From assembly GCA_963664015.2 (NCBI GenBank), contig CAXXLF010000002.1, positions 896,001 to 960,000 on the forward strand: 64,000 bases of DNA, given 5' to 3'. The notes below the pieces were generated by a model. The model was not told where the DNA came from. It ran no database searches and saw only the letters and a list, made by a program, of their open reading frames with translations. The position numbers and the translations under genes were made by a program. This document shows positions 11,520-44,571 of the stretch, in pieces (position 1 is the stretch's first letter; each line of letters starts with the position of its first letter). The stretch is from Candidatus Binatia bacterium. Lineage in GTDB: Bacteria; Desulfobacterota; Binatia; UBA9968; CAXXLF01.

Positions 11520-11720
11520 TATTCCAGAAAGGCTTGGCTTGCCAGACGGAACCTTCATTTTCTCCGTCAGACATTTGCGAGTTTGTTAATAGCTCAGGGA
11601 GAGAGCCTTGCATACGTGAAGGACCAGATGGGACATAGCAGCATCGAGGTAACCGTGGATATCTACGGACATCTAGTCCCCGGCGCGAACAGGCAGGCGG
11701 TGAACAGGTTGGATGACGCT
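11520..11720 (+). pseudogene. Tyrosine integrase C-terminal remnant
   Basis: HFLRQTFASLLIAQGESLAYVKDQMGHSSIEVTVDIYGHL (HxLR..GH..Y box II); N-terminal domains absent; points at the tRNA 3' end; limits approximate. Confidence 0.85.
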
Positions 11721-11816: not shown

Positions 11817-11892
<76 letters not shown>

Positions 11893-34247: not shown

Positions 34248-34859
34248 ATGGGCTATCAACTGAAAGATTCCTATTACTGGCGGGCCAAGAAAGAGGGGTA
34301 CCGTTCCCGGGCTGCCTACAAGCTCCAAGAGCTCAACCAAAGCTATCGCCTCATTGGTACGGGCAACCGAGTCCTCGATCTGGGAGCCGCCCCTGGAGGC
34401 TGGTTACAGGTAGCCTCCAAGCTGGTAGGCCCCAAGGGAAAGGTCCTGGGCGTAGATAACCAACCCATCGCCCTCTTTAAGGAGGAAAATATTTTACTGC
34501 TTCCGGGGGATATCAGCGAGGAAGCAACGCAAGCGAAAATCAGGCAGCAGCTGGGGGGTGCCGCCGACTGCGTACTGTCGGACCTATCTCCCCGACTTAG
34601 CGGCATTCACGATGTAGATATCAGCCGATCCCTCGACCTTGCCCGAACCGCATTTCAGGTTGCCTGCTCCTTAATACGACCAGGGGGGAACTTCGTAGTC
34701 AAAACCTTTATCGGGGAAGAGACCACGTCGTTATTCAAGGAGCTTCAACCTTACTTCGAGTCGGTTCATCGAACGCGTGCGGAGGCCACACGCAAACACT
34801 CCTCCGAGATCTACATGATTGGTAAAGGATTTCGGAAATCCGCCAATAGTCGATCGTAG
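34248..34859 (+). CDS. rlmE: 23S rRNA Um2552 methyltransferase
   Basis: GYRSRAAYKL, DLGAAPGGW, SD, K, SSEIY (K-D-K-E tetrad). Confidence 0.93.
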   Translation: MGYQLKDSYYWRAKKEGYRSRAAYKLQELNQSYRLIGTGNRVLDLGAAPGGWLQVASKLVGPKGKVLGVDNQPIALFKEENILLLPGDISEEATQAKIRQQLGGAADCVLSDLSPRLSGIHDVDISRSLDLARTAFQVACSLIRPGGNFVVKTFIGEETTSLFKELQPYFESVHRTRAEATRKHSSEIYMIGKGFRKSANSRS

Positions 34860-35087
34860 TTCGTCAATCGGCGCTAACAGTCATATTCTTGAACCGTCAC
34901 AGCAAATAGAGTTACGGAAATCCGATTGACGAGTGATGGCTAATCGTCTCAAATTCACTCGACGGTTAATAGAACTGCGAGATTTCGTGGTTGGTCGTTA
35001 GAAGAATTAAACTCAACAACCCTTGTATTTCTTACGGACACATTCACGGGCAAAGTTAATTACCTCGCTTCCCAAATGTTGGTTCGA

Positions 35088-35678
35088 TTATTGAGATGCA
35101 CTTTTTTTAATTAAACGCTCAACTGCAGCAACATGTTTCTGAATATAGGTTTCCGGGAACTTCATAATTTGCGATGAAGGTTGAAGTCTATATGGGTCAA
35201 TATCCGCTTTCACTTGAAATCCACCAACACTTCTTTTCTTCAAGAATCCATGTTCAAGAGGAATTCCTGCATTATGTTGCCTTATCCATCGACCCCAGTT
35301 TTTAATCGACTTGACTTTAAGTGCCTGCCCTTCGTCTGAACGCACCGCCCATTGTGTTGGTTCTGACACCAACGCATTCTGACTATACTGAAAAAAAATC
35401 CATATATAGTCTTTTATTTCGCCACTTTTTCGGATGGAAGTTTGCAGTCTGTATTTAGTGTTTAGGTGTATGAAAGCACAAGTCCATGCTGGACAACCAG
35501 ACTCTCCATTATTGAAATTCGGACTGAGCACTTGGAAACGGCACGAACTAAATTTGTCGCAAATGTGAGTTGTGACTTTAGTAGATATCGTGCGACTTGG
35601 GCTGATGTTTTGCGTCGCTGTTGTTGCCTGACACCCCACCAACAGGGTCAGGACAGGAAGGATGAGCAGTCGGTTCAT
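35088..35678 (-). CDS. Hypothetical lipoprotein
   Basis: MNR..LLVGC lipobox. Confidence 0.65.
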   Translation of the reverse strand: MNRLLILPVLTLLVGCQATTATQNISPSRTISTKVTTHICDKFSSCRFQVLSPNFNNGESGCPAWTCAFIHLNTKYRLQTSIRKSGEIKDYIWIFFQYSQNALVSEPTQWAVRSDEGQALKVKSIKNWGRWIRQHNAGIPLEHGFLKKRSVGGFQVKADIDPYRLQPSSQIMKFPETYIQKHVAAVERLIKKSASQ

Positions 35679-35715
35679 CGGGGAAGTCTGACAGAAAATG
35701 TCTGGGATGGGAAGA

Positions 35716-35893
35716 TCAAACTTGGTTGATGAGAGTTCTATCTACCAACCGTAAACCAAAGTTGGAAGGTTTCGGTGCATATTTTTTGCTCAACCGTTCA
35801 TCCCTTACTCTCTTTTTCTTAATTATCGAATGAACGTGAGAACTCCTAATACTCCTCCCTCTAACGGTGGAATAACCATTCTCATTCAACCAG
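35716..35893 (-). pseudogene. C-terminal fragment of a recombinase-type HTH protein, paralogous to 42389-42769
   Basis: WLNENGYSTVRGRS.RSSHVHSIIKKKRVRDERL..KY aligns with HLNELGVRTHKGSEWRTQYVYSVIKRYRERQERL..KY. Confidence 0.65.
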
Positions 35894-35894
35894 A

Positions 35895-36140
35895 TTGAAG
35901 GGGATTGGTCCCAAGAGAATCTGTACCCACAAGAACATTTACCTACGAGCAACAGATCTCAAAAATGATGGAGAGAGATTGATGGTTCCCGTGAATTCTA
36001 AGGGCAAATCTCTTTATCCGATTGTGGTGAAACAACAGCGGGATGGCGGCATCCACCACCTATTGGAAGTGATAAAGGGAAGTTTTGGTTCTGTACCCCA
36101 AGACAGAGGGTTCAGAATGCGAAATTATATGAATTTGTGA
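35895..36140 (+). pseudogene. C-terminal fragment paralogous to 39818-40780
   Basis: KGIGPK.ICTHKNIYLRATD.K.DGERL.VP and GGIHHLL.V.KGSFGSVPQ.RGF are shared. Confidence 0.85.
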
Positions 36141-36177
36141 TAGAGTAAAAAATATTTAGTGGATAAGGGTTTCTATT

Positions 36178-37026
36178 ATGGAAAAAACACTTACTGCGAT
36201 TGTACTTTCCTTAACCTTATTAGTCTTTGGTTGTGACAGGTCTTCAGTATACCCCGATGCAGTTGTTGAGCGGCAGGGGATAACATATCTTATCAACTCA
36301 AAGACACCTTTCAGCGGAGAAATAGTGACCTTATATCCAGGGTTGGACTCGGACGCCAAACTTGGTCAAACACTTTCCAGAATTCAATATGAAGATGGCA
36401 AAAGGAACGGGGAAGCAGTTTATTTTCACGGAAACGGACAGTTAGAGGCAGAAGGAGACTACAGGAACGGGGGGCAAAACGGTCCTTGGCTCAGTTACCA
36501 CAAAAACGGACAGTTAGGGGCAGAAGGAGACTACAGGAACGGGGAGCGAAACGGTCCTTGGCTCAGTTACCATAACAGCGGAGGGGTATATAGAAAATTA
36601 ACCTACCAGAACGGGAAGGCAAACGGTCCTTACGTCGAGTATAATGAAAACGGACAGGTATTTGCAAAAGGAACCTACCAGAACGGGAGGGTAAAGGGTC
36701 CTTACGCTGAGTATCATGAAAACGGTCAGTTACATTTCAAAGGAACCTATTTGTATCAGGGGAGTTGGGACGGTCTTTATGTCGAATATCGCAAAGACGG
36801 ACAGTTAGTTGAAAAATCAACCTACCAGAGTGGCCAGTACGGCCAGCATGGAGCCGGGGAGCGAAACGGCCCTTACGTTAAGTACACGTACCACGATAAC
36901 GGAAAGTTAAGCACCAAAAGAGAAGGTGTCTACGATTCATTGCAAAGGTGTTTTAACGGTTCTTACGTCAGGTATGACAAAACCGGAAAACTATTTGAAA
37001 AAGGAACTTACAATTGTGAGCGGTAG
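36178..37026 (+). CDS. MORN-variant (YwqK-like) repeat lipoprotein
   Basis: LVFGC lipobox, TPFSG, repeated YH.NGQL..EG.Y.NG..NGP; near-exact 72-bp duplication at 36432/36504. Confidence 0.85.
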   Translation: MEKTLTAIVLSLTLLVFGCDRSSVYPDAVVERQGITYLINSKTPFSGEIVTLYPGLDSDAKLGQTLSRIQYEDGKRNGEAVYFHGNGQLEAEGDYRNGGQNGPWLSYHKNGQLGAEGDYRNGERNGPWLSYHNSGGVYRKLTYQNGKANGPYVEYNENGQVFAKGTYQNGRVKGPYAEYHENGQLHFKGTYLYQGSWDGLYVEYRKDGQLVEKSTYQSGQYGQHGAGERNGPYVKYTYHDNGKLSTKREGVYDSLQRCFNGSYVRYDKTGKLFEKGTYNCER

Positions 37027-37131
37027 CGAGTCCTACACCAACATAGGTAATGGCACAGTTGGACAGGTAGCTAACGAGTTCAGAAGACGATTTATCGGTT
37101 ACGATATTCAAATGTATTAGGTGTCAGAGGT

Positions 37132-37316
37132 GTGTTCCGAAAGTCCCTCTAAAATCTAGATTCGAGAATGGGAGGAATCCGGGATTCTTGGATAGCCGAT
37201 ATCACCTCAAATCAGGTGTTCCAAAGGAAATACTTGAGAACACCCTTCTGAGAGATTACCAAACCACCGATTTCCAACGATTTTGAGCGGTGATTTCAGA
37301 GGGACTTTCGGAACAC
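37132..37316. repeat. 185-bp non-coding element with 25-bp terminal inverted repeats
   Basis: gtgttccgaaagtccctctaaaatc ... gatttcagagggactttcggaacac (19 bp perfect, 24 of 25 overall). Confidence 0.8.
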
Positions 37317-37361
37317 CTGTTCCCAATTAAACAATCAATCTGGTGCCCTTTACTCTGGGTC

Positions 37362-37565
37362 CTAGTCGTCTACTATTTTTTGATTGGCATCATCTTGTAG
37401 CAATTGTCCATGAGTTGACGCTGTAATTACCAACCAAAGCATGAGATACAACCACCACGCAATAGAAAACAAATCAAGGTATACTTCAAGCAAAAACCAA
37501 ATGATGAGTGTGCCTGCCGCACCTAGGCCAAGAGCCAAAAAAGTTCTTTTTTCGTTGTTGCCCAT
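37362..37565 (-). CDS. Small 2-TM membrane protein
   Basis: AGGAG RBS; two hydrophobic helices. Confidence 0.65.
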   Translation of the reverse strand: MGNNEKRTFLALGLGAAGTLIIWFLLEVYLDLFSIAWWLYLMLWLVITASTHGQLLQDDANQKIVDD

Positions 37566-37603
37566 GATTCACTCCTAATCCCATAGAATACGTCCTTAAA
37601 TCC

Positions 37604-37894
37604 CTAACATGTTGAGGAACGAAGTTCCAGACTTTTCGGGGTCAGCGATAGTGAAAGAAATGGGGCAGCAGATCGATTGATAAACCGACGATAGTTAATC
37701 TCTTCGGGGGTGGGTTTGTGTCCTGAGTTCACGACCTGTGAATATGCGGCCGTCATATTGGGAATCGTATCGATACGGGTAGAGGATTTATCTATCAAGT
37801 CCTTGTTGGATCGATCACGGTAAGCATCCTGCTTGCCCACATCCTCTTGATCCTGCAATGCCTTCATTCGGAGGTAATCGTGGATCACAGGCAT
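37604..37894 (-). CDS. Hypothetical protein, probably a fragment
   Basis: ORF only. Confidence 0.3.
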   Translation of the reverse strand: MPVIHDYLRMKALQDQEDVGKQDAYRDRSNKDLIDKSSTRIDTIPNMTAAYSQVVNSGHKPTPEEINYRRFINRSAAPFLSLSLTPKSLELRSSTC

Positions 37895-37945
37895 CAGTGG
37901 GTCACCATCTGATTAACATTCCTGAGATCAACATGGAACCGTGAG

Positions 37946-38140
37946 ATGTTGGTGGAACGCACCAAATCTGGACTCGCACGAACTGTTGCGAATGGAACCA
38001 AGTTGGGTAGGAAATCCGTTCTGACACCATCCATGAAGAAACGAATTTTCGATGCCAGGGAAGAAGGAAACTCCCTAACTAAAATCGCATCAGATGTTGG
38101 TTTAGGACTCGCTACTGTTCACAAGTGTCTCAACGCCTAA
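37946..38140 (+). pseudogene. Serine resolvase/invertase remnant (helix E, hinge and HTH_7)
   Basis: ERTKSGLART..G.KLGRK..IA..VGLG.ATV.K; catalytic N-terminal domain missing. Confidence 0.8.
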
Positions 38141-38179
38141 TTATTGAACGATTCAGTCTTTTTATGCTCTTTTCGACCT

Positions 38180-38348
38180 TCACTTACTCGAACTTTTCAC
38201 TCCGTTTTCGTAAATTTCTTCCCCCAACAACTCTCCGTTTTCACGGTAATAATACGCAGCACCGTGTTTCACCCCGTCTTTGTAGTTTATTTTCATATTT
38301 AACTGTCCATTCTCGTGATACCGAAGACTTTCTCCCTTCCTTAACGCC
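38180..38348 (-). pseudogene. Orphan start-less MORN-variant C-terminal cassette
   Basis: Hand translation GVKEG/ESLRYHENGQLNMKINYKDGVKHGAAYYYRENGELLGEEIYENGVKSSSK*. Confidence 0.7.
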
Positions 38349-38438
38349 CACCAGTACCCTGACTTCGGATTCTGTCGAGCGCCTCCTGCATTTCCTTATC
38401 TAATATTTTAAATCCTGTATCACGCCGTTCTTTCTCTT

Positions 38439-39755
38439 CTAGTTTTTCTCTTGTAACTCATTTTCTGTTGTTGTGGTGATGGTTACATTCGGAGATATCT
38501 CACGTAGAAGTTTTTGGGCAGGTTTATATCCTTGTTGGTTAGAAAGTACGTACAACTCTTTCGCTATTTTAGTATCCTGTGGAACCCCTAGTCCTTTGTG
38601 ATACATAAAACCCAAATTGTACTGACCACGCATATTCCCTTTTTCCGCCGAAAGGACAAACCATTTCACCGCGGTTTTATAGTCCTTTGGAATCCCTTGT
38701 CCGGTTTTGTACATCGTACCCAGATTGTTCTGGGCATTGGCATTCCCCTGTTCGGCAGCAAGTCTGTACCACTTCACTGCTGTCTTATAGTTCTGTGAAA
38801 CACCGTCTCCGTGTTCGTACATAACACCCAGATTGTTCTGGGCATTGGCATTCCCCTGTTCGGCAGCAAGTCTGTACCACTTCACTGCTGTCTTATAGTT
38901 CTGTGAAACACCGTCTCCGTGTTCGTACATAACACCCAGATTGTACTGGGCACGGGCATCCCCCTGTTCGGCGGCAAGGGTGAACCATTTCACCGCGGTT
39001 TTATAATCCTTTGGAATCCCTTGTCCTCTGGCGTACATCAAACCCAGATTGTACTGGGCATCGGTATCTCCCTGTTCGGCGGCAAGGGTGAACCATTTCA
39101 CCGCGGTTTTATAATCCTCTGGAATCCCTTGTCCTCTGGCGTACATCATACCCAGATTGAACTGGGCACTGACTCCCCCCGTTTCGGCAATTAGTCCCCA
39201 TTCACGCCGAGCGGTTGCGTAGTCACCACTCTGGTGTGCGGTTAGACCCTTTTGGAAATCACCGGGCAATTTCCCGTTCTTGTAAGTTCCTACCCTTGCT
39301 GGAGATGGTAAACCATGACCATAGTGTGCCATCATTAGGTCAGTAGCGTGCGGTTCAGTTGCTGTCCAAACAGTCCCGTTACTGTTGTAAGCGACCCAAA
39401 CACCCTCTTCCTTCCCATTCTTGTAGGTTCTTTTTTCAAATAACTGTCCGTTATCATGGTAATACACCCAAGGACCGTCTTTCACGCCGTCCCTGTAACT
39501 TCCTTCTGCCTTTAACTGGTCGTTTACATGAAATTCAACTGCTTTCCCGTTCTTTTTGCCATTTTCATATGAAACTCTGGACATTGTATCACCAAGGACT
39601 TTGCGTACTATGTCTCCGCTAAAAGGCGTCGTTGAGTTGATTCGATACGTTACCCCATGCCGCTCAACAACGTCGCTGGGGGATACTGAAGACTCGCCAC
39701 AACCAAAGACCAATAAGGTTAAGGAAAGTAAAATCGCAGTAAGTGTCTTTTTCAT
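38439..39755 (-). CDS. MORN-variant plus SEL1-repeat lipoprotein
   Basis: LVFGC lipobox; MORN units; six AQ.NLG.MY..G.G SEL1 units; exact 108-bp duplication at 38721/38829. Confidence 0.9.
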   Translation of the reverse strand: MKKTLTAILLSLTLLVFGCGESSVSPSDVVERHGVTYRINSTTPFSGDIVRKVLGDTMSRVSYENGKKNGKAVEFHVNDQLKAEGSYRDGVKDGPWVYYHDNGQLFEKRTYKNGKEEGVWVAYNSNGTVWTATEPHATDLMMAHYGHGLPSPARVGTYKNGKLPGDFQKGLTAHQSGDYATARREWGLIAETGGVSAQFNLGMMYARGQGIPEDYKTAVKWFTLAAEQGDTDAQYNLGLMYARGQGIPKDYKTAVKWFTLAAEQGDARAQYNLGVMYEHGDGVSQNYKTAVKWYRLAAEQGNANAQNNLGVMYEHGDGVSQNYKTAVKWYRLAAEQGNANAQNNLGTMYKTGQGIPKDYKTAVKWFVLSAEKGNMRGQYNLGFMYHKGLGVPQDTKIAKELYVLSNQQGYKPAQKLLREISPNVTITTTTENELQEKN

Positions 39756-39817
39756 AATAGAAAACCTCATCCACTGAAGATGTTTTAACTTTTTCACAAA
39801 GTTATATAATTTCATAG

Positions 39818-40780
39818 TCAAAATCCTCTGTTTTGAGGAACAGAACCAAAGGAACCCTTCATTACGTCCAGTAGATGGTGGATACCCCCAATCTTTTGTT
39901 GCTTCACCAGATTGGAATACTGAACCTTATTTCCCCATGTCGGAACCTTCAATCTCTCTCCATCAGTTTTGGAATCTGTTGCTCGTAGGTAGATGTTTTT
40001 GTGGGTGCAGATTTCCTTGGGACCAATTCCCTTCAATGTCATCACCAGTGCATTGTATCGGTTCTGGAGGACATCAGGACGAGGATAACCATCTATCGGG
40101 AACCTTGGACTGCCCTCTGGTGACATCCCATCCTTAATCGTCTGAATGAAGGTATCCACGTCTGGACGCCGTGAGGTTTTGTCAATTCGGACATAGACGA
40201 AGTTGGGATCGTCAACCCATTCGTCTTTTGAGGTTATGCGTGTTGGGTAATGTCCCTCGAACAGGTGTGCATGGGTGCTCCACCATGTGTTGAAGGTGTC
40301 AGATAGAACCTGATCTAAGTCCCATCCCTGATATTCGCTCTCATCGACACGAACCAGAACGGTATCTCGTTGTCGAAATCGTCTTGTGCCTACCGTTTCA
40401 CCGTAACGTTTTCCACCACCCAAACTGGAATCAAAATTTCCATGACGAGTGACAAGTTCGACACTCTTACCTAGTGACTGCAATTCCAGTGCAAGTTTGA
40501 GGAATCGGAACCAGTGTCGATATATCTGGACACCCTTATCCAGAACCCTACCTTCCAAATTTCTCGCTGAGACTGTCCTATGTCGAGAGTCCCCACCTTC
40601 ACCACCCGCATAAACCGCTGAAGGACGCTTGCTACGTCTGGATAGGGGTTCTTGTGCAACCTCTATAGATTTCTCCAATTCCACCTTCTCAATAGGACTT
40701 CCATCCACGATCACATAATACGACCTGTCCTTGTGGTGAGGTTTCACGTTCCTCTCTGCAATTATCCTTCCTTTACCCAT
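39818..40780 (-). CDS. Uncharacterised island protein, possible regulator
   Basis: YRHWFRFLKLALE, YQGW, FNTWW..LF, KGSF; GAGG RBS; second partial copy in the island. Confidence 0.7.
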   Translation of the reverse strand: MGKGRIIAERNVKPHHKDRSYYVIVDGSPIEKVELEKSIEVAQEPLSRRSKRPSAVYAGGEGGDSRHRTVSARNLEGRVLDKGVQIYRHWFRFLKLALELQSLGKSVELVTRHGNFDSSLGGGKRYGETVGTRRFRQRDTVLVRVDESEYQGWDLDQVLSDTFNTWWSTHAHLFEGHYPTRITSKDEWVDDPNFVYVRIDKTSRRPDVDTFIQTIKDGMSPEGSPRFPIDGYPRPDVLQNRYNALVMTLKGIGPKEICTHKNIYLRATDSKTDGERLKVPTWGNKVQYSNLVKQQKIGGIHHLLDVMKGSFGSVPQNRGF

Positions 40781-40918
40781 TTTCGCCCTCAAATTCGGTT
40801 TTCGGAAAAGGGTGGTGAAATCGGGGTTCTGAAACCCTTGTTTTCTGCACCTTTCAAACCCCCATTTCCGTTTTCGAAAATCATTCGATTTCCGAAAGTC
40901 TCTTATACAGAGAATTGA

Positions 40919-41020
40919 GGGATATGGATACCGTAAACGATAATCCGCCCATCCTGACTATTCCTGTTGGGACAGGTATAATAGGTACAGAAATTGGGAG
41001 AAACAGATTCCCAATAGAAA
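40919..41020 (+). promoter_or_regulatory. Promoter/operator/stem-loop cassette, copy 1
   Basis: CTGACT-17-TATAAT (40977-40982); CCTGT-N4-ACAGG in the spacer; attggga..tcccaat hairpin. Confidence 0.75.
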
Positions 41021-41039
41021 CAGAAGAAGAGGGTGTTGC

Positions 41040-41612
41040 GTGATGAATTACGAATTTATCCGTTATGGGATGAAAACCACACTTAAACCGTTTGTGAAAT
41101 CGTGGGGTATTAAGGAACTGCTATCCGTTCCTATTAGGAAAACGGGTTTAACGGGTTCCTTGCCTTATGGAAGGTGTCACCACAACGTCAGTTTTCTCCA
41201 AGAACGATATGGTGGAGAAACGGTGTTGGGGTTTGCGATATTAGAGGAAGACACATTCTTTTGGTGTATTCCCCATTCTGTGTGGAAGACACCAGAAGGG
41301 AAATATGTAGATGTGACCTTAAAGATGACAATCGAAACTGATGAGACTGAATATGTGAGGTTTGCACCCCTCGTTTGGTATGACGCAACTAGGGTTGGGT
41401 GGACTCTTAGACACGAGTTTCGGATCTACAAAGACCTGCACAAAGGAATTGAATGGAAACTCGATAATGGACCTTATGAGATGTTTACAAGGAAATCATT
41501 TAAGGGAAAAGACATGACAGGTTTAGTGTTCAAGAGAGACTATCCTTGTACCGAAACTGACAGTTGGGTGGATTACCTTCTGAAATTGGAAAAAGTAGTG
41601 GAAAACCTATGA
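41040..41612 (+). CDS. Hypothetical protein with candidate Cys-His-Asp triad
   Basis: GRCHHNV..YGGE.V.G..HSVWKTPEGKYVDVT. Confidence 0.65.
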   Translation: MMNYEFIRYGMKTTLKPFVKSWGIKELLSVPIRKTGLTGSLPYGRCHHNVSFLQERYGGETVLGFAILEEDTFFWCIPHSVWKTPEGKYVDVTLKMTIETDETEYVRFAPLVWYDATRVGWTLRHEFRIYKDLHKGIEWKLDNGPYEMFTRKSFKGKDMTGLVFKRDYPCTETDSWVDYLLKLEKVVENL

Positions 41613-41619
41613 CCCGATC

Positions 41620-41719
41620 GGGATATGGATGACGTAACCAGTAAGTTGCCCATCATGCCTATTCCTGTTGAGACAGGTATAATGGGCACAGAGATTGGGA
41701 AACGGTTTCCCAATCGAAA
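41620..41719 (+). promoter_or_regulatory. Promoter/operator/stem-loop cassette, copy 2
   Basis: ATGCCT-17-TATAAT (41678-41683); same palindrome; gattgggaaa-cgg-tttcccaatc hairpin. Confidence 0.75.
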
Positions 41720-41762
41720 ACGGGGGTTTTTCGTCCCCTGCTCAGATAGAAGGAGAAACAAA

Positions 41763-42041
41763 ATGGGAAACAAATATTTTGATGTTGAATGCGAAATGAA
41801 TGCGGTGTTGAAGATCCGTGCAAACTCCGCAGAAGACGCAAAACTCAAAATGCAGTCTTGGGTGAAGGACACCGACCTCAATCGCCTGACTTCCAATGAG
41901 GACGTAACCTTTAAGTTCATTGATGGTAGGGGAACGGTTACGAACTCAGGAACTCCGAACTATGCACTGGATTGGGGAATATGGGACGCAGAAGGAAATC
42001 TAATTCCAACTGGTGGTTCATATGAGTTGGAGGTTGCGTGA
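41763..42041 (+). CDS. Small phage-like hypothetical protein
   Basis: AAGGAG RBS; IRANSAEDA motif; ends ELEVA with coupled next start. Confidence 0.6.
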   Translation: MGNKYFDVECEMNAVLKIRANSAEDAKLKMQSWVKDTDLNRLTSNEDVTFKFIDGRGTVTNSGTPNYALDWGIWDAEGNLIPTGGSYELEVA

Positions 42042-42388
42042 TGGAAACAGAACGAATGAAGGTTACATCATGCGATGAACTGCACGAAATTATCAAACCA
42101 AGAATATTACAGAGTTCCAGTGGGATACAGAGGATGGGTTTGAGATTGAAGAAGTAGAAGACGAAATAACAGTTTGAGATACCGAAACTTCTTTACCAAA
42201 CCGTGTCTCTCTCCTCGGTGTCTCAACTAAACATGGTTAGGAGACAGACACCCCCCTTGAGTTTGAACGACCTTGCTAGTCTACAAATGCAACTAGGTTC
42301 CCTAGATTATAAAATTCCCGCCGCCAGAAATCTCACCAGAGGGTGCTCACGTTCCCCTAGAATTCTGCCAGGGGTTGATTGAACTTCC

Positions 42389-42741
42389 CTATTCCTCATC
42401 GTATTCCACCCACATCTTGGATATGACAGGTTGATACTTCTTATTCCTCAATTCTAATCGTTCCTGTCGTTCCCTGTATCGTTTGATTACCGAATAGACA
42501 TATTGGGTTCTCCACTCACTTCCCTTGTGCGTCCTCACACCTAATTCGTTGAGATGTTTTGCAATCTTCCTGTATCCCATCCCATTCTCGTGTAGGGATT
42601 GCACGAACTCATACAATTCCTCCTGTTGTGGGGAATAGTTGCGTTTGTTGTATTCGGGATTCAGGTGGTTGAATCGAATTGAAACGGTGAAACAGAGGTA
42701 ATTTGCGTATCCACCGTTAGAAGAAAAAGGACTGTTCTCAC

Positions 42742-42769
<28 letters not shown>
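42389..42769 (-). CDS. Recombinase-type DNA-binding HTH frame, open across the glmS stop
   Basis: GMGYRKIAKHLNELGVRTHKGSEW..V resembles the PF07508 recombinase-domain HTH; no stop until 42770-42772; start uncertain. Confidence 0.65.

Positions 42770-44571
<1,802 letters not shown>

What the first reader, a model, noticed from the sequence alone, without database searches (positions are those of the whole stretch)
34960..42741. Non-Tn7 integrative element occupying the glmS 3' end
Seen: foreign-looking AT-richer DNA starts right after the glmS TAG and runs ~7.8 kb toward rlmE. It has no tnsABCD/TniQ genes or Tn7-type ends that I can see, but has serine-recombinase-type fragments (two recombinase-domain HTH frames and one resolvase C-terminus). 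Two island genes each occur twice. Established: the glmS 3' end is the Tn7 attTn7 target, recognised by TnsD. Inference: an independent serine-recombinase element family uses the same safe site, and at least two related copies accumulated and decayed here.
Basis: partly seen in the sequence, partly recalled or inferred. Interest (0 to 1): 0.78.

Follow-up and report, generated by a model that had tools for sequence, protein, structure and literature searches.

The report
Decayed serine-integrase island in glmS end
The 7.9-kb foreign stretch after glmS is the worn-out, immobile remnant of a little-known family of marine mobile elements that insert into the last codons of glmS with a large serine integrase whose own gene is cut in two by the insertion.

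Summary
A low-GC 7.9-kb insert lies between convergent glmS and rlmE. In 25 of 25 relatives with both genes on one contig the two genes are neighbours, and none of the 11 sites fetched holds an island gene.

The start-less "Recombinase HTH" frame after glmS belongs to a family found directly after glmS in 35 of 80 marine metagenome loci and in 4 other genomes; a fifth, G031, carries it as the second unit of a tandem array after glmS. In 12 further loci the same frame follows a large serine recombinase (LSR) gene, three of them on contigs with circular-type end overlaps. All share a 12-nt core, ACNGTNGARTAR, which encodes Thr-Val-Glu-stop of glmS.

In 3 sequence types the LSR frame runs unbroken through this core into the HTH frame. 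The integrase gene therefore spans attP, and integration detaches its C-terminal domain. This explains why the window's frame has no start codon.

The window holds this C-terminal piece, a second truncated one, a small-resolvase tail and duplicated cargo genes. It has no catalytic recombinase, and no LSR was found anywhere in the genome. I read it as a dead tandem remnant. No Tn7 genes were found. I found no printed description of LSR elements at glmS or of a self-splitting serine integrase.

The parts
34248..34859 (+). rlmE, the chromosomal flank; ancestral convergent neighbour of glmS
   Evidence: ORF. It is adjacent to glmS in 25 of 25 relatives that have both genes on one contig.
35013..35056 (-). 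Remnant of the last ~13 codons plus stop of a Sel1-type gene. It is the outermost recognisable island feature on the rlmE side.
   Evidence: A 31-nt motif has 6 copies in the genome. The other 5 lie at C2:1.224-1.245 Mb (alignment). Reading it as the C-terminal codons of a Sel1-type gene is my own reading of that alignment.
35088..35678 (-). 196-aa predicted lipoprotein, cargo of the older unit
   Evidence: ORF. No Pfam, NCBIfam or PHROG match.
35719..35958 (-). Second copy of the LSR C-terminal (Recombinase-HTH) piece. Only its C-terminal half is left; the N-terminal half and its core are cut off by the junction near 35890.
   Evidence: hmmsearch with the family profile gives E 8.4e-7, profile positions 81-129. 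It is 78% nt identical to the second piece on metagenome contig L025.
35865..36140 (+). C-terminal fragment of the 324-aa family gene, one arm of the inverted duplicate
   Evidence: hmmsearch E 4.8e-29, profile positions 256-327. 73% aa identity to the full copy. Inverted repeats I2, I4 and I5.
36178..37026 (+). 282-aa MORN-repeat lipoprotein. Its 5' part duplicates that of 38439-39821.
   Evidence: PF07661 E 8.6e-22. Inverted repeats I1-I3.
37362..37894 (-). Two small ORFs of 67 and 96 aa. The 96-aa one recurs in related islands.
   Evidence: ORFs. tblastn hits of the 96-aa ORF in L014 (two) and L017.
37928..38140 (+). C-terminal helix plus HTH of a small serine recombinase (resolvase/invertase). 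The catalytic domain is missing.
   Evidence: phrog_125 E 3e-10; HTH_7 E 0.003. 35% identity to residues 125-190 of the G031 small resolvase. No PF00239 match in the island.
38150..38400 (-). MORN-repeat pseudogene fragment
   Evidence: Translation of the minus strand shows MORN-like repeats ending in a stop. This is my reading of the sequence only.
38439..39821 (-). 460-aa MORN plus Sel1-repeat lipoprotein (cargo)
   Evidence: Sel1 E 3.7e-74; MORN_2 E 5.7e-7.
39818..40792 (-). 324-aa protein of an uncharacterised family; recurrent cargo of these elements
   Evidence: 161 relatives, none with a Pfam domain. 114 representative clusters. No Pfam, NCBIfam or PHROG match. AF2 model pLDDT 78.5 with no PDB fold match at E<=0.001.
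40919..42041 (+). Two 81-nt direct repeats (40919-40999 and 41620-41700, 83% alike), each ahead of a small gene: 190 aa at 41040-41612 and 138 aa at 41625-42041.
   Evidence: Repeat D4. Promoter-like site at 40954-40982. Relatives of the 190-aa protein in L017 and on the circular-type contig L051.
42392..42741 (-). C-terminal domain piece of a large serine recombinase gene. The frame is open from 42769 and has no start codon before the TTG at 42616. Its 5' part is the element-side (P') arm of the attachment site.
   Evidence: PF07508 at 25.8 bits. 45% identity over 155 aa to residues 554-702 of the 704-aa frame of L037, E 5e-31. 88-90% nt identity to L022-L027. 22 of 38 differences from L022 fall on third codon positions.
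42742..42753 (-). 12-nt core ACAGTAGAGTAG (Thr-Val-Glu-stop of glmS), the presumed crossover region of attL
   Evidence: The core ACNGTNGARTAR lies at a near-fixed distance before the piece in 67 of 80 loci. Similarity to the attP form L022 ends at 42755.
42742..44571 (-). glmS, the target gene, intact
   Evidence: 609-aa ORF, 64-79% identical to the glmS of relatives.

Best explanation
The stretch from about 34880 to 42753 is the immobilised remnant of at least two tandem insertions of one element family. Members of this family are integrative elements moved by a large serine recombinase (LSR).

Their attachment core is the last four codons of glmS (Thr-Val-Glu-stop). The element re-supplies these codons, so glmS stays intact. 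This part is shown by comparison of sequences.

In the free or circular form the LSR gene runs across attP. Integration therefore leaves the roughly 570-aa LSR body at the far end of the element. The roughly 115-aa C-terminal HTH domain ends up as a start-less frame directly after glmS. This is shown for 3 sequence types and inferred for the window's type, where a -1 shift on an A9 run would be needed.

New copies insert at glmS and push older ones outward, giving tandem arrays. This is shown in genome G031.

In the window both LSR bodies, the small resolvase's catalytic domain and the distal attachment site have been lost, and the cargo has been duplicated in inverted orientation. With no LSR in the assembly, the island can no longer excise; this last step is inferred. 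What remains is cargo: MORN/Sel1 lipoproteins, the 324-aa protein and small genes of unknown function.
For: 1. Insertion. GC drops in the island. glmS and rlmE are neighbours in 25 of 25 relatives with both genes on one contig. The 11 sites fetched carry a single core and no island gene.

2. Link to glmS. Of 80 metagenome loci kept out of 198 relatives, 35 have a true glmS C-terminus directly before the piece, 11 have an LSR gene, 25 have something else and 9 have too little upstream sequence. L065, counted among the 25, also has an LSR gene upstream. In species genomes the piece abuts glmS in G033, G442, G499 and G780, and is the second unit of the array after glmS in G031.

3. Both states of the same element end. 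L022 is an attP form, and L023, L024, L029 and the window are attL forms of one type. L037-39 (attP) pair with L079 (attL). L050/51 (attP) pair with L099 (attL). Contigs L038, L050 and L051 have terminal overlaps of 123, 92 and 123 nt. The ORF listing shows a 711-aa ORF in L038.

4. The gene spans attP. The LSR frame and the piece's frame form one open frame in L037/38/39, L065 and L097/100. They are offset by -1, with an A9 run inside the 58-64-nt overlap, in L022 and L050/51. An A8-A10 run lies 104-141 nt before the conserved Tyr codon in 12 of 12 loci.

5. Tandem array. G031 has four direct copies of the core. Each element unit starts with a piece and ends with an LSR gene about 25-50 nt before the next core.

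6. Decay in the window. No LSR body remnant was found (all tblastn E>0.4). In the whole genome there is one PF00239 match, elsewhere and with an internal stop, and PF07508 matches only this piece. A second, truncated piece lies in the same orientation. Contig L025 carries both pieces in the same order, about 0.8 kb apart.

7. Horizontal origin. The piece is 85-86% aa and 88% nt identical to L023/L024, whose glmS is only 46-47% identical to the window's. Among 401 genomes of the window's phylum, only G000 has a full-length match.
Against: No attR or distal copy of the core was found near rlmE. The best alignments there are not above shuffled controls: 5 of 300 and 36 of 300 shuffles reach the observed score. 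The left border is therefore undefined.

In 3 of the 12 LSR-linked loci (L069, L078, L087) one or two stop codons separate the LSR from the piece in the same frame.

Two copies of the piece (L016 16262-16612 and the second one in L025) have their own ATG or GTG start, so the domain can also exist as a separate gene.

A word-based search for longer proteins containing this domain found none, which is weak evidence.

The circular-type contigs could also be tandem repeats.

Recombination, excision and frameshifting were not observed. The contigs laid on the window show no joint that skips the island, but contigs cannot show rare forms.
Confidence: 0.82

Rival explanations
1. The Recombinase-HTH frame is a small stand-alone gene of the element, for example a directionality factor or regulator that sits next to attL. 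It is not a detached part of the integrase gene. On this reading the continuous frames seen in some contigs are incidental.
For: Copies with their own start codon exist: L016 16262-16612 (ATG) and L025 1150-1521 (GTG). Stops separate it from the LSR in L069, L078 and L087. Gene callers list 50 proteins of 63-162 aa. No longer protein was found by the word search.
Against: The window and L014 have no ATG, GTG or TTG upstream of the conserved N-terminal block. The called proteins' N-termini look like frame-shifted glmS 3' ends; this is my back-translation, and the underlying DNA is seen directly. One open frame of 703-734 aa occurs in 3 independent sequence types, one of them with the core inverted. 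A -1 offset with an A9 run in the overlap occurs in 2 more types.
Confidence: 0.2
2. The island is a decayed Tn7-like transposon at attTn7.
For: Only the position next to glmS.
Against: There is no TniQ or TnsA_N match at E<=1 in the genome, and no rve match in the island. The junction lies inside the glmS coding sequence and shares a 12-nt core with LSR-linked attP forms. Intact relatives carry LSRs, not Tns genes.
Confidence: 0.01
3. The stretch is native, variable intergenic DNA of this lineage, like the 1-2.3-kb inserts at the same site in one related family, and not a mobile element.
For: 7 of 25 relatives have 1.05-2.3 kb with one or two ordinary-looking ORFs between glmS and rlmE.
Against: Those inserts have the GC content of their flanks (0.55-0.67) and no similarity to island genes. 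The window's end piece is 88-90% nt identical to marine contigs whose glmS is only about 46% identical.
Confidence: 0.02
4. The family consists of phage satellites packaged by helper phages, like the marine VEIMEs or PLEs, rather than plain integrative islands. This does not exclude the best explanation; it concerns how the elements travel between cells.
For: The 10,388-nt contig L038 is also filed as a viral genome in IMG/VR (L102, the same sequence rotated). In the marine VEIME study, 91% of module 3 elements encode a serine recombinase (PMC9618062, passages read). Sizes of about 6-12 kb fit.
Against: I found no capsid, terminase or primase family in the 40 ORFs of L016, G031, L038 and L051 that I scanned. 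The paper's main text does not mention glmS; its supplements could not be seen.
Confidence: 0.15

Closest known systems
SCC / SCCmec elements moved by the Ccr large serine recombinases into the 3' end of rlmH (orfX) in staphylococci (recalled, not from a call)
   Same: LSR-driven insertion into the last codons of a conserved housekeeping gene. There is a short core repeated at both ends, tandem accretion of elements at the site, and decayed recombinase-less remnants.
   Different: The target gene (glmS) and the hosts (marine Gram-negative lineages) differ. Here the integrase gene itself spans attP and loses its C-terminal domain on integration. The only sequence link is a weak NCBIfam CcrB hit, E 0.03.
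Tn7 and Tn7-like transposons at attTn7 downstream of glmS (TnsD/TniQ targeting; recalled)
   Same: They exploit the same highly conserved glmS 3' end as a safe landing site.
   Different: Tn7 is a transposase system that inserts downstream of the stop codon. Here the mechanism is serine-recombinase site-specific recombination inside the last four codons. No Tns genes are present.
SSV-type 'suicidal' tyrosine integrases of archaea (PMC8371274, passages read; PMC7253208, search listing only)
   Same: The attachment site lies inside the integrase reading frame, so integration partitions the integrase gene.
   Different: Those are tyrosine recombinases. The review states that such integrases are found exclusively in archaea. 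Here the enzyme is a bacterial serine recombinase, and the detached part is an extra C-terminal domain that leaves a canonical LSR body.
Integration-dependent immunity of temperate actinophages, where attP lies inside the repressor gene (CyranoPS preprint 10.64898/2026.10.29.762952, passages read; BPs/Brujita recalled)
   Same: Integration changes the C-terminus of an element protein and thereby its activity.
   Different: The affected gene there is the repressor, and the recombinase is a tyrosine integrase.
Marine serine-recombinase elements: VEIME module 3, PLEs, and the 27 of 937 tycheposon-like elements that carry an LSR (PMC9618062; 10.1101/2020.12.28.424599; passages read)
   Same: Small marine integrative elements with large and small serine recombinases.
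   Different: Neither main text mentions glmS or a split integrase. Their supplements were closed and could bear on this.

Membership tests
Tn7-like transposon | TniQ/TnsD targeting protein | tested here: not met
   PF06527 has no match at E<=1 in the whole genome, which is 97.3% complete.
Tn7-like transposon | TnsA endonuclease and TnsB (rve) transposase | tested here: not met
   PF08722 has no match in the genome. PF00665 has 6 matches, none in the island. TnsC was not tested.
Tn7-like transposon | Insertion downstream of the glmS stop, with transposon ends carrying TnsB-binding repeats | tested here: not met
   Similarity to the attP form of the element reaches window position 42755, inside glmS. 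No terminal inverted repeats appear among the 25 longest pairs. The expected Tn7 geometry is recalled.
LSR-mobilised integrative element | Element-encoded large serine recombinase (Resolvase + Recombinase + zinc ribbon) | tested here: not met
   Absent from the window. Present in relatives: L016, G031 (three), L022 and L050 carry all three domains, and L037, L065 and L097 match Resolvase and Recombinase only. The window is therefore filed as a remnant, not a functional member.
LSR-mobilised integrative element | attL with the target core joined to the element arm, matching an attP form | tested here: met
   The window has core plus arm at 42392-42755. It is 89% nt identical to L022, where an LSR gene precedes the same core.
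LSR-mobilised integrative element | attR, a second copy of the core at the distal end | tested here: not met
   No copy was found near rlmE. The feature is met in G031, with 4 direct cores.
LSR-mobilised integrative element | Recombination activity (excision or integration) | not testable with these tools
   Only contigs were available. No listed joint skips the island.
Pfam PF07508 Recombinase domain | Score above the gathering cut-off | tested here: met
   25.8 bits against a cut-off of 21.1, covering profile positions 15-51 of 102. The AF2 model's best PDB hits are serine integrase complexes, but only at E 0.15-0.46.
Small serine recombinase (resolvase/invertase) | N-terminal catalytic domain PF00239 | tested here: not met
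   Only the C-terminal helix and HTH remain at 37928-38140.
Self-partitioning ('suicidal', SSV-type) integrases | Attachment site inside the integrase reading frame | tested here: met
   One open frame runs through the core in L037/38/39, L065 and L097/100. For the window's own type (L022) this holds only after a -1 shift.
Self-partitioning ('suicidal', SSV-type) integrases | Tyrosine recombinase catalytic domain | tested here: not met
   The enzymes are serine recombinases. PF00589 has no match in the island.

The most novel reading that the evidence does not exclude
This would be a bacterial large serine integrase that partitions its own gene. attP lies inside the integrase reading frame, so insertion into the last codons of glmS detaches an extra C-terminal DNA-binding domain. 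A conserved A8-A10 run just upstream would set, by -1 slippage, how much long form is made. The long form from the free circle and the short form from the integrated copy would then favour opposite reactions. That would give directionality without a separate directionality factor.
Probability: 0.4. Interest if true: 0.85.

Novelty: new variant of a known kind. Interest (0 to 1): 0.72.

Why it matters
glmS is the textbook "safe harbour" of Tn7. This finding shows a second, mechanistically unrelated family using the same conserved codons across distant marine lineages, with tandem accretion like SCC elements.

The integrases recognise a near-universal 12-nt core. In 34 of the 35 glmS-linked loci the gene ends in the same peptide, PRNLAKSVTVE. 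That makes these enzymes candidate broad-host site-specific integration tools.

A serine integrase gene that spans its own attP would extend to bacteria, and to serine recombinases, a design that a 2021 review describes as exclusive to archaea. It would also make a built-in directionality switch directly testable.

For annotation, the start-less frame after glmS should not be called a pseudogene fragment of unknown origin.

Tried and rejected
I used family searches of the genome and my own hmmsearch instead.

attR: the search for a distal core or element arm near rlmE gave nothing above shuffled controls. A 37-nt similarity between 35091-35127 and 42794-42830 (D8) is out of frame, and I treat it as chance.

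The 324-aa protein: it has no Pfam, NCBIfam or PHROG family. Its AF2 model has no PDB fold match. The Atlas gave only unnamed clusters or low-share family leads. Its function stays unknown.

Rfam gave no match in 34800-43000.

The 45-nt abundant motif at 35011-35056 first looked like an attachment arm. It turned out to be the C-terminal codons of a Sel1-type gene family.

The word-based search for longer proteins with the HTH domain found none.

Reads: the parts of the stretch without cover in X21 and X1, and the listed short joints inside the Sel1 and MORN repeats and inside glmS, come from repeats or other organisms and were not used. No RNA run holds the stretch, so expression could not be checked.

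The search of earlier findings returned nothing.

Literature: searches found no paper on LSR elements at glmS or on a serine integrase that splits its own gene. The Durrant preprint was seen only in a search listing. Supplements were closed and may list glmS among LSR targets.

Full report
**1. What is in the window**

rlmE (34248-34859, +) and glmS (42742-44571, -) converge on a 7.9-kb stretch. Its GC content is 0.40-0.48, against 0.51-0.58 on both sides.

I searched 30 relatives of the same order. In 25 of them both genes lie on one contig, and in all 25 they are convergent neighbours. The gap is 1-360 bp in 18 and 1.05-2.3 kb in 7, against 7888 bp here. The other five have the genes on different contigs or lack a match.

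I fetched 11 of the 25 sites. Each holds exactly one copy of the motif ACNGTNGARTRR, at the glmS stop. None matches any island protein or any recombinase of the family described below. The larger gaps hold one or two ORFs of 333-477 aa with the GC content of their flanks; I did not identify these ORFs.

Contigs from three runs of three studies bridge the glmS junction, and one contig bridges the rlmE side. One of those runs may be the source of the assembly. Misassembly is therefore unlikely.

**2. Island content**

Going from glmS toward rlmE, the island holds:
- A frame open from 42769 to 42392 (-). It matches the Pfam Recombinase domain (25.8 bits, cut-off 21.1) and has no ATG, GTG or TTG before 42616.
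- Two small genes on the + strand, of 190 and 138 aa, each behind an 81-nt repeat.
- A 324-aa gene of an uncharacterised family.
- A MORN+Sel1 lipoprotein gene, followed by a MORN fragment.
- The C-terminal helix and HTH of a small serine recombinase, without its catalytic domain.
- Two small ORFs.
- A second MORN lipoprotein gene and a C-terminal fragment of the 324-aa gene. These two form an inverted duplicate, 74-90% alike.
- A second, truncated copy of the Recombinase-HTH frame (35719-35958, -, E 8e-7).
- A 196-aa lipoprotein gene.
- A 13-codon remnant of a Sel1-type gene.

The island has no Resolvase, TniQ, TnsA, rve or tyrosine-integrase match. The whole genome, 97.3% complete, has one Resolvase match, which lies elsewhere and has an internal stop. 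It has no Recombinase-domain match other than this frame.

**3. The frame after glmS is a family marker tied to glmS**

Its relatives lie directly after glmS in a Candidatus Thioglobus genome (L016). In a Cellvibrionaceae MAG (G031) the relative lies 12 kb after glmS and is preceded by a remnant of the glmS end.

A scan of metagenome contigs with an alignment of the family found 198 relatives, of which 80 loci were kept. I sorted the 80 by what lies upstream:
- 35 have a genuine glmS C-terminus. It ends PRNLAKSVTVE in 34 of the 35.
- 11 have a large serine recombinase (LSR) gene on the same strand.
- 25 have something else. One of these, L065, also has an LSR gene upstream.
- 9 have under 150 nt of upstream sequence.

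The 12-nt core lies in direct orientation at a near-fixed distance before the conserved Tyr-Leu-Cys-Phe codons in 67 of the 80. Most of the remainder whose upstream sequence is long enough to judge carry a recognisable variant of it inverted (L048, L063, L065, L070, L072, L073, L094).

In species genomes the result is as follows. Among 401 genomes of the window's own phylum, only G000 has a full-length match. Among 400 genomes of the class of G031, four have one. In the three new ones the frame abuts glmS.

**4. Both states of the same elements are seen**

For three different element ends, the identical arm follows an LSR gene in one contig and a glmS gene in another:
- L022 against L023, L024, L029 and the window.
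- L037-39 against L079.
- L050/51 against L099.

In each pair the sequences diverge to the left of the core. L038, L050 and L051 have terminal direct overlaps of 123, 92 and 123 nt, as circular assemblies do. L038 recurs, rotated, as an IMG/VR record.

In G031 the core occurs four times in direct orientation after glmS and delimits three elements of 8-12 kb. Each element begins with a piece and ends with an LSR gene about 25-50 nt before the next core. One of the three LSR genes is truncated. This is the pattern of repeated site-specific insertion at one core, as known for SCC elements (recalled).

**5. The integrase gene spans attP**

In L037/38/39, L065 and L097/100 (three sequence types) the LSR frame continues without a stop through the core into the HTH frame. 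This gives 703-734 aa. The ORF tool lists 711 aa in L038.

In L022 and L050/51 the HTH frame is at -1 and overlaps the LSR frame by 58-64 nt, and an A9 run lies inside the overlap. In L022 the run reads A_AAA_AAG in the LSR frame. From memory, that is the classic bacterial -1 slippery site.

In L069, L078 and L087 the two frames are the same but are separated by one or two stops.

All 12 LSR-linked loci have an A8-A10 run 104-141 nt before the Tyr codon. Two of the four integrated LSR genes checked (L016 and G031b) end about 10 nt past an A9 run and a third (G031a) ends just past an A7 run; the truncated fourth (G031c) has none.

The window's frame aligns to residues 554-702 of the L037 protein (45% identity, E 5e-31). 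Against its nearest relatives, 21-22 of 32-38 differences fall on third codon positions, and synonymous codon changes are about as frequent as replacements or more so. The frame has therefore evolved as coding sequence.

This explains the missing start codon in the window and in L014. After integration the piece is the detached 3' part of the integrase gene.

I hold this reading at about 0.7. The exceptions are the three loci with stops and the two copies with their own start codon.

**6. What the window copy is**

By sequence it belongs to the L022 type: 88-90% nt identity over 42393-42755, and the similarity to the attP form ends at 42755. The hosts of its nearest relatives are distant, with glmS only 46-47% identical. 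The element was therefore acquired horizontally.

The second piece lies in the same orientation. The metagenome contig L025 has both pieces in the same order, about 0.8 kb apart, with a core before each. The first piece is 90% and the second 78% nt identical to the window's. Together these indicate an array of two units.

The LSR bodies, the distal core and half of the second piece are gone, and the cargo has been duplicated and inverted. With no LSR in the genome, I infer that the island is fixed.

The cargo recurs in family members:
- MORN or Sel1 genes in L024, L047, L069 and L098.
- The 190-aa protein in L017 and L051.
- The 324-aa protein in L014, L016 and L038.

The function of the cargo is unknown.

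**7. How it most likely works**

Comparison of sequences shows insertion at the Thr-Val-Glu-stop codons of glmS with regeneration of those codons, tandem accretion, and a free form with attP inside or just after the integrase frame.

The following steps are inferred from what is established for serine integrases:
- A two-base staggered crossover occurs within the 12-nt core. In two attP forms, 16-nt perfect inverted arms centre on the AC of the Thr codon. This is my reading of the sequences.
- The short LSR body, which has the catalytic and Recombinase domains in every copy scanned and a recognisable zinc-ribbon match in L016, L022, L050 and two of the three G031 copies, is the form made from integrated copies.
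- The long form is made only from the free element.
- The two forms may differ in the direction they favour.

Phage LSRs need a separate factor for excision, whereas TnpX and TndX work in both directions alone (PMC2475636, passages read).

**8. Comparison with known systems and novelty**

The mechanism class, an LSR integrative island, is known. SCC elements at rlmH are the nearest functional parallel (recalled). Tn7 shares only the target gene.

Integrases that split their own gene are described for archaeal tyrosine recombinases. A 2021 review says they are exclusive to archaea (PMC8371274).

Marine serine-recombinase elements have been catalogued, but their main texts mention neither glmS nor a split gene.

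Seven literature searches found no description of this family. Supplementary tables, which could list glmS among LSR targets, were closed.

I rate the finding as a new variant of a known kind. The window's own copy is an ordinary dead remnant. The interest lies in the family it reveals.

Noticed in passing
window 11550-11675, next to tRNA-Thr at 11817-11892: There is a weak Phage_integrase match (E 1.9e-5, below the cut-off) in a 230-aa open frame about 150 nt from the only tRNA gene of the window. It may be a tRNA-linked island remnant.
   Followed up: no
own genome C2:1,224,468-1,244,656 (outside the window) and window 35020-35050: A 31-nt motif occurs 6 times in the genome, all on the forward strand, and 5 of the copies lie within 20 kb. 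I read it as encoding the C-terminal peptide of a Sel1-type protein family. It is very abundant in a seawater run: depth about 1200 against about 5. A weak match to the HTH piece lies in the same region, at C2:1240507-1240602.
   Followed up: partly
window 39818-40792 and 37928-38140; L014, L015, L016, L017, L038: The 324-aa family gene lies 0.6-2.7 kb from a small serine recombinase gene in all 6 places with enough flank. Two of them (L015, L017) have neither an LSR gene nor a glmS core beside the family's genes (L015 has one lone core match). The pair may be a separate module nested in the LSR elements.
   Followed up: partly
window 40919-40999 and 41620-41700: An 81-nt direct repeat (83% alike) lies ahead of each of the two small + strand genes. 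It contains a short palindrome overlapping a TATAAT-like hexamer. The first copy scores as promoter-like, 10 of 12.
   Followed up: partly
window 37132-37156 and 37292-37316: A 25-nt inverted repeat, 96% complementary, has arms 135 nt apart in the non-coding stretch after the MORN gene.
   Followed up: no
L016 16262-16700; L048, L063, L065, L070, L072, L073, L094: A subfamily carries a variant of the glmS core inverted relative to the integrase direction. These elements should sit in the opposite orientation after glmS. In L016 such a piece has its own ATG and lies at the far end of the island beside a second core.
   Followed up: partly
own genome C2:1018300-1018728: The only Resolvase-domain match of the genome (E 3.5e-44) carries an internal TAA, so it is probably a broken small resolvase gene.
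   Followed up: no
window 42742, run X1 record 7: A 357-nt seawater contig matches glmS down to exactly the stop codon (42742-43081, 2 differences). It then continues for 17 letters that do not match the island. This hints at a related strain with a different sequence after glmS.
   Followed up: no
alignment A1, proteins P0008 and P0107: Two members of the 324-aa family carry the same insertion of about 32 residues, rich in Trp, Gly and Lys, between the invariant WW and H motifs.
   Followed up: no
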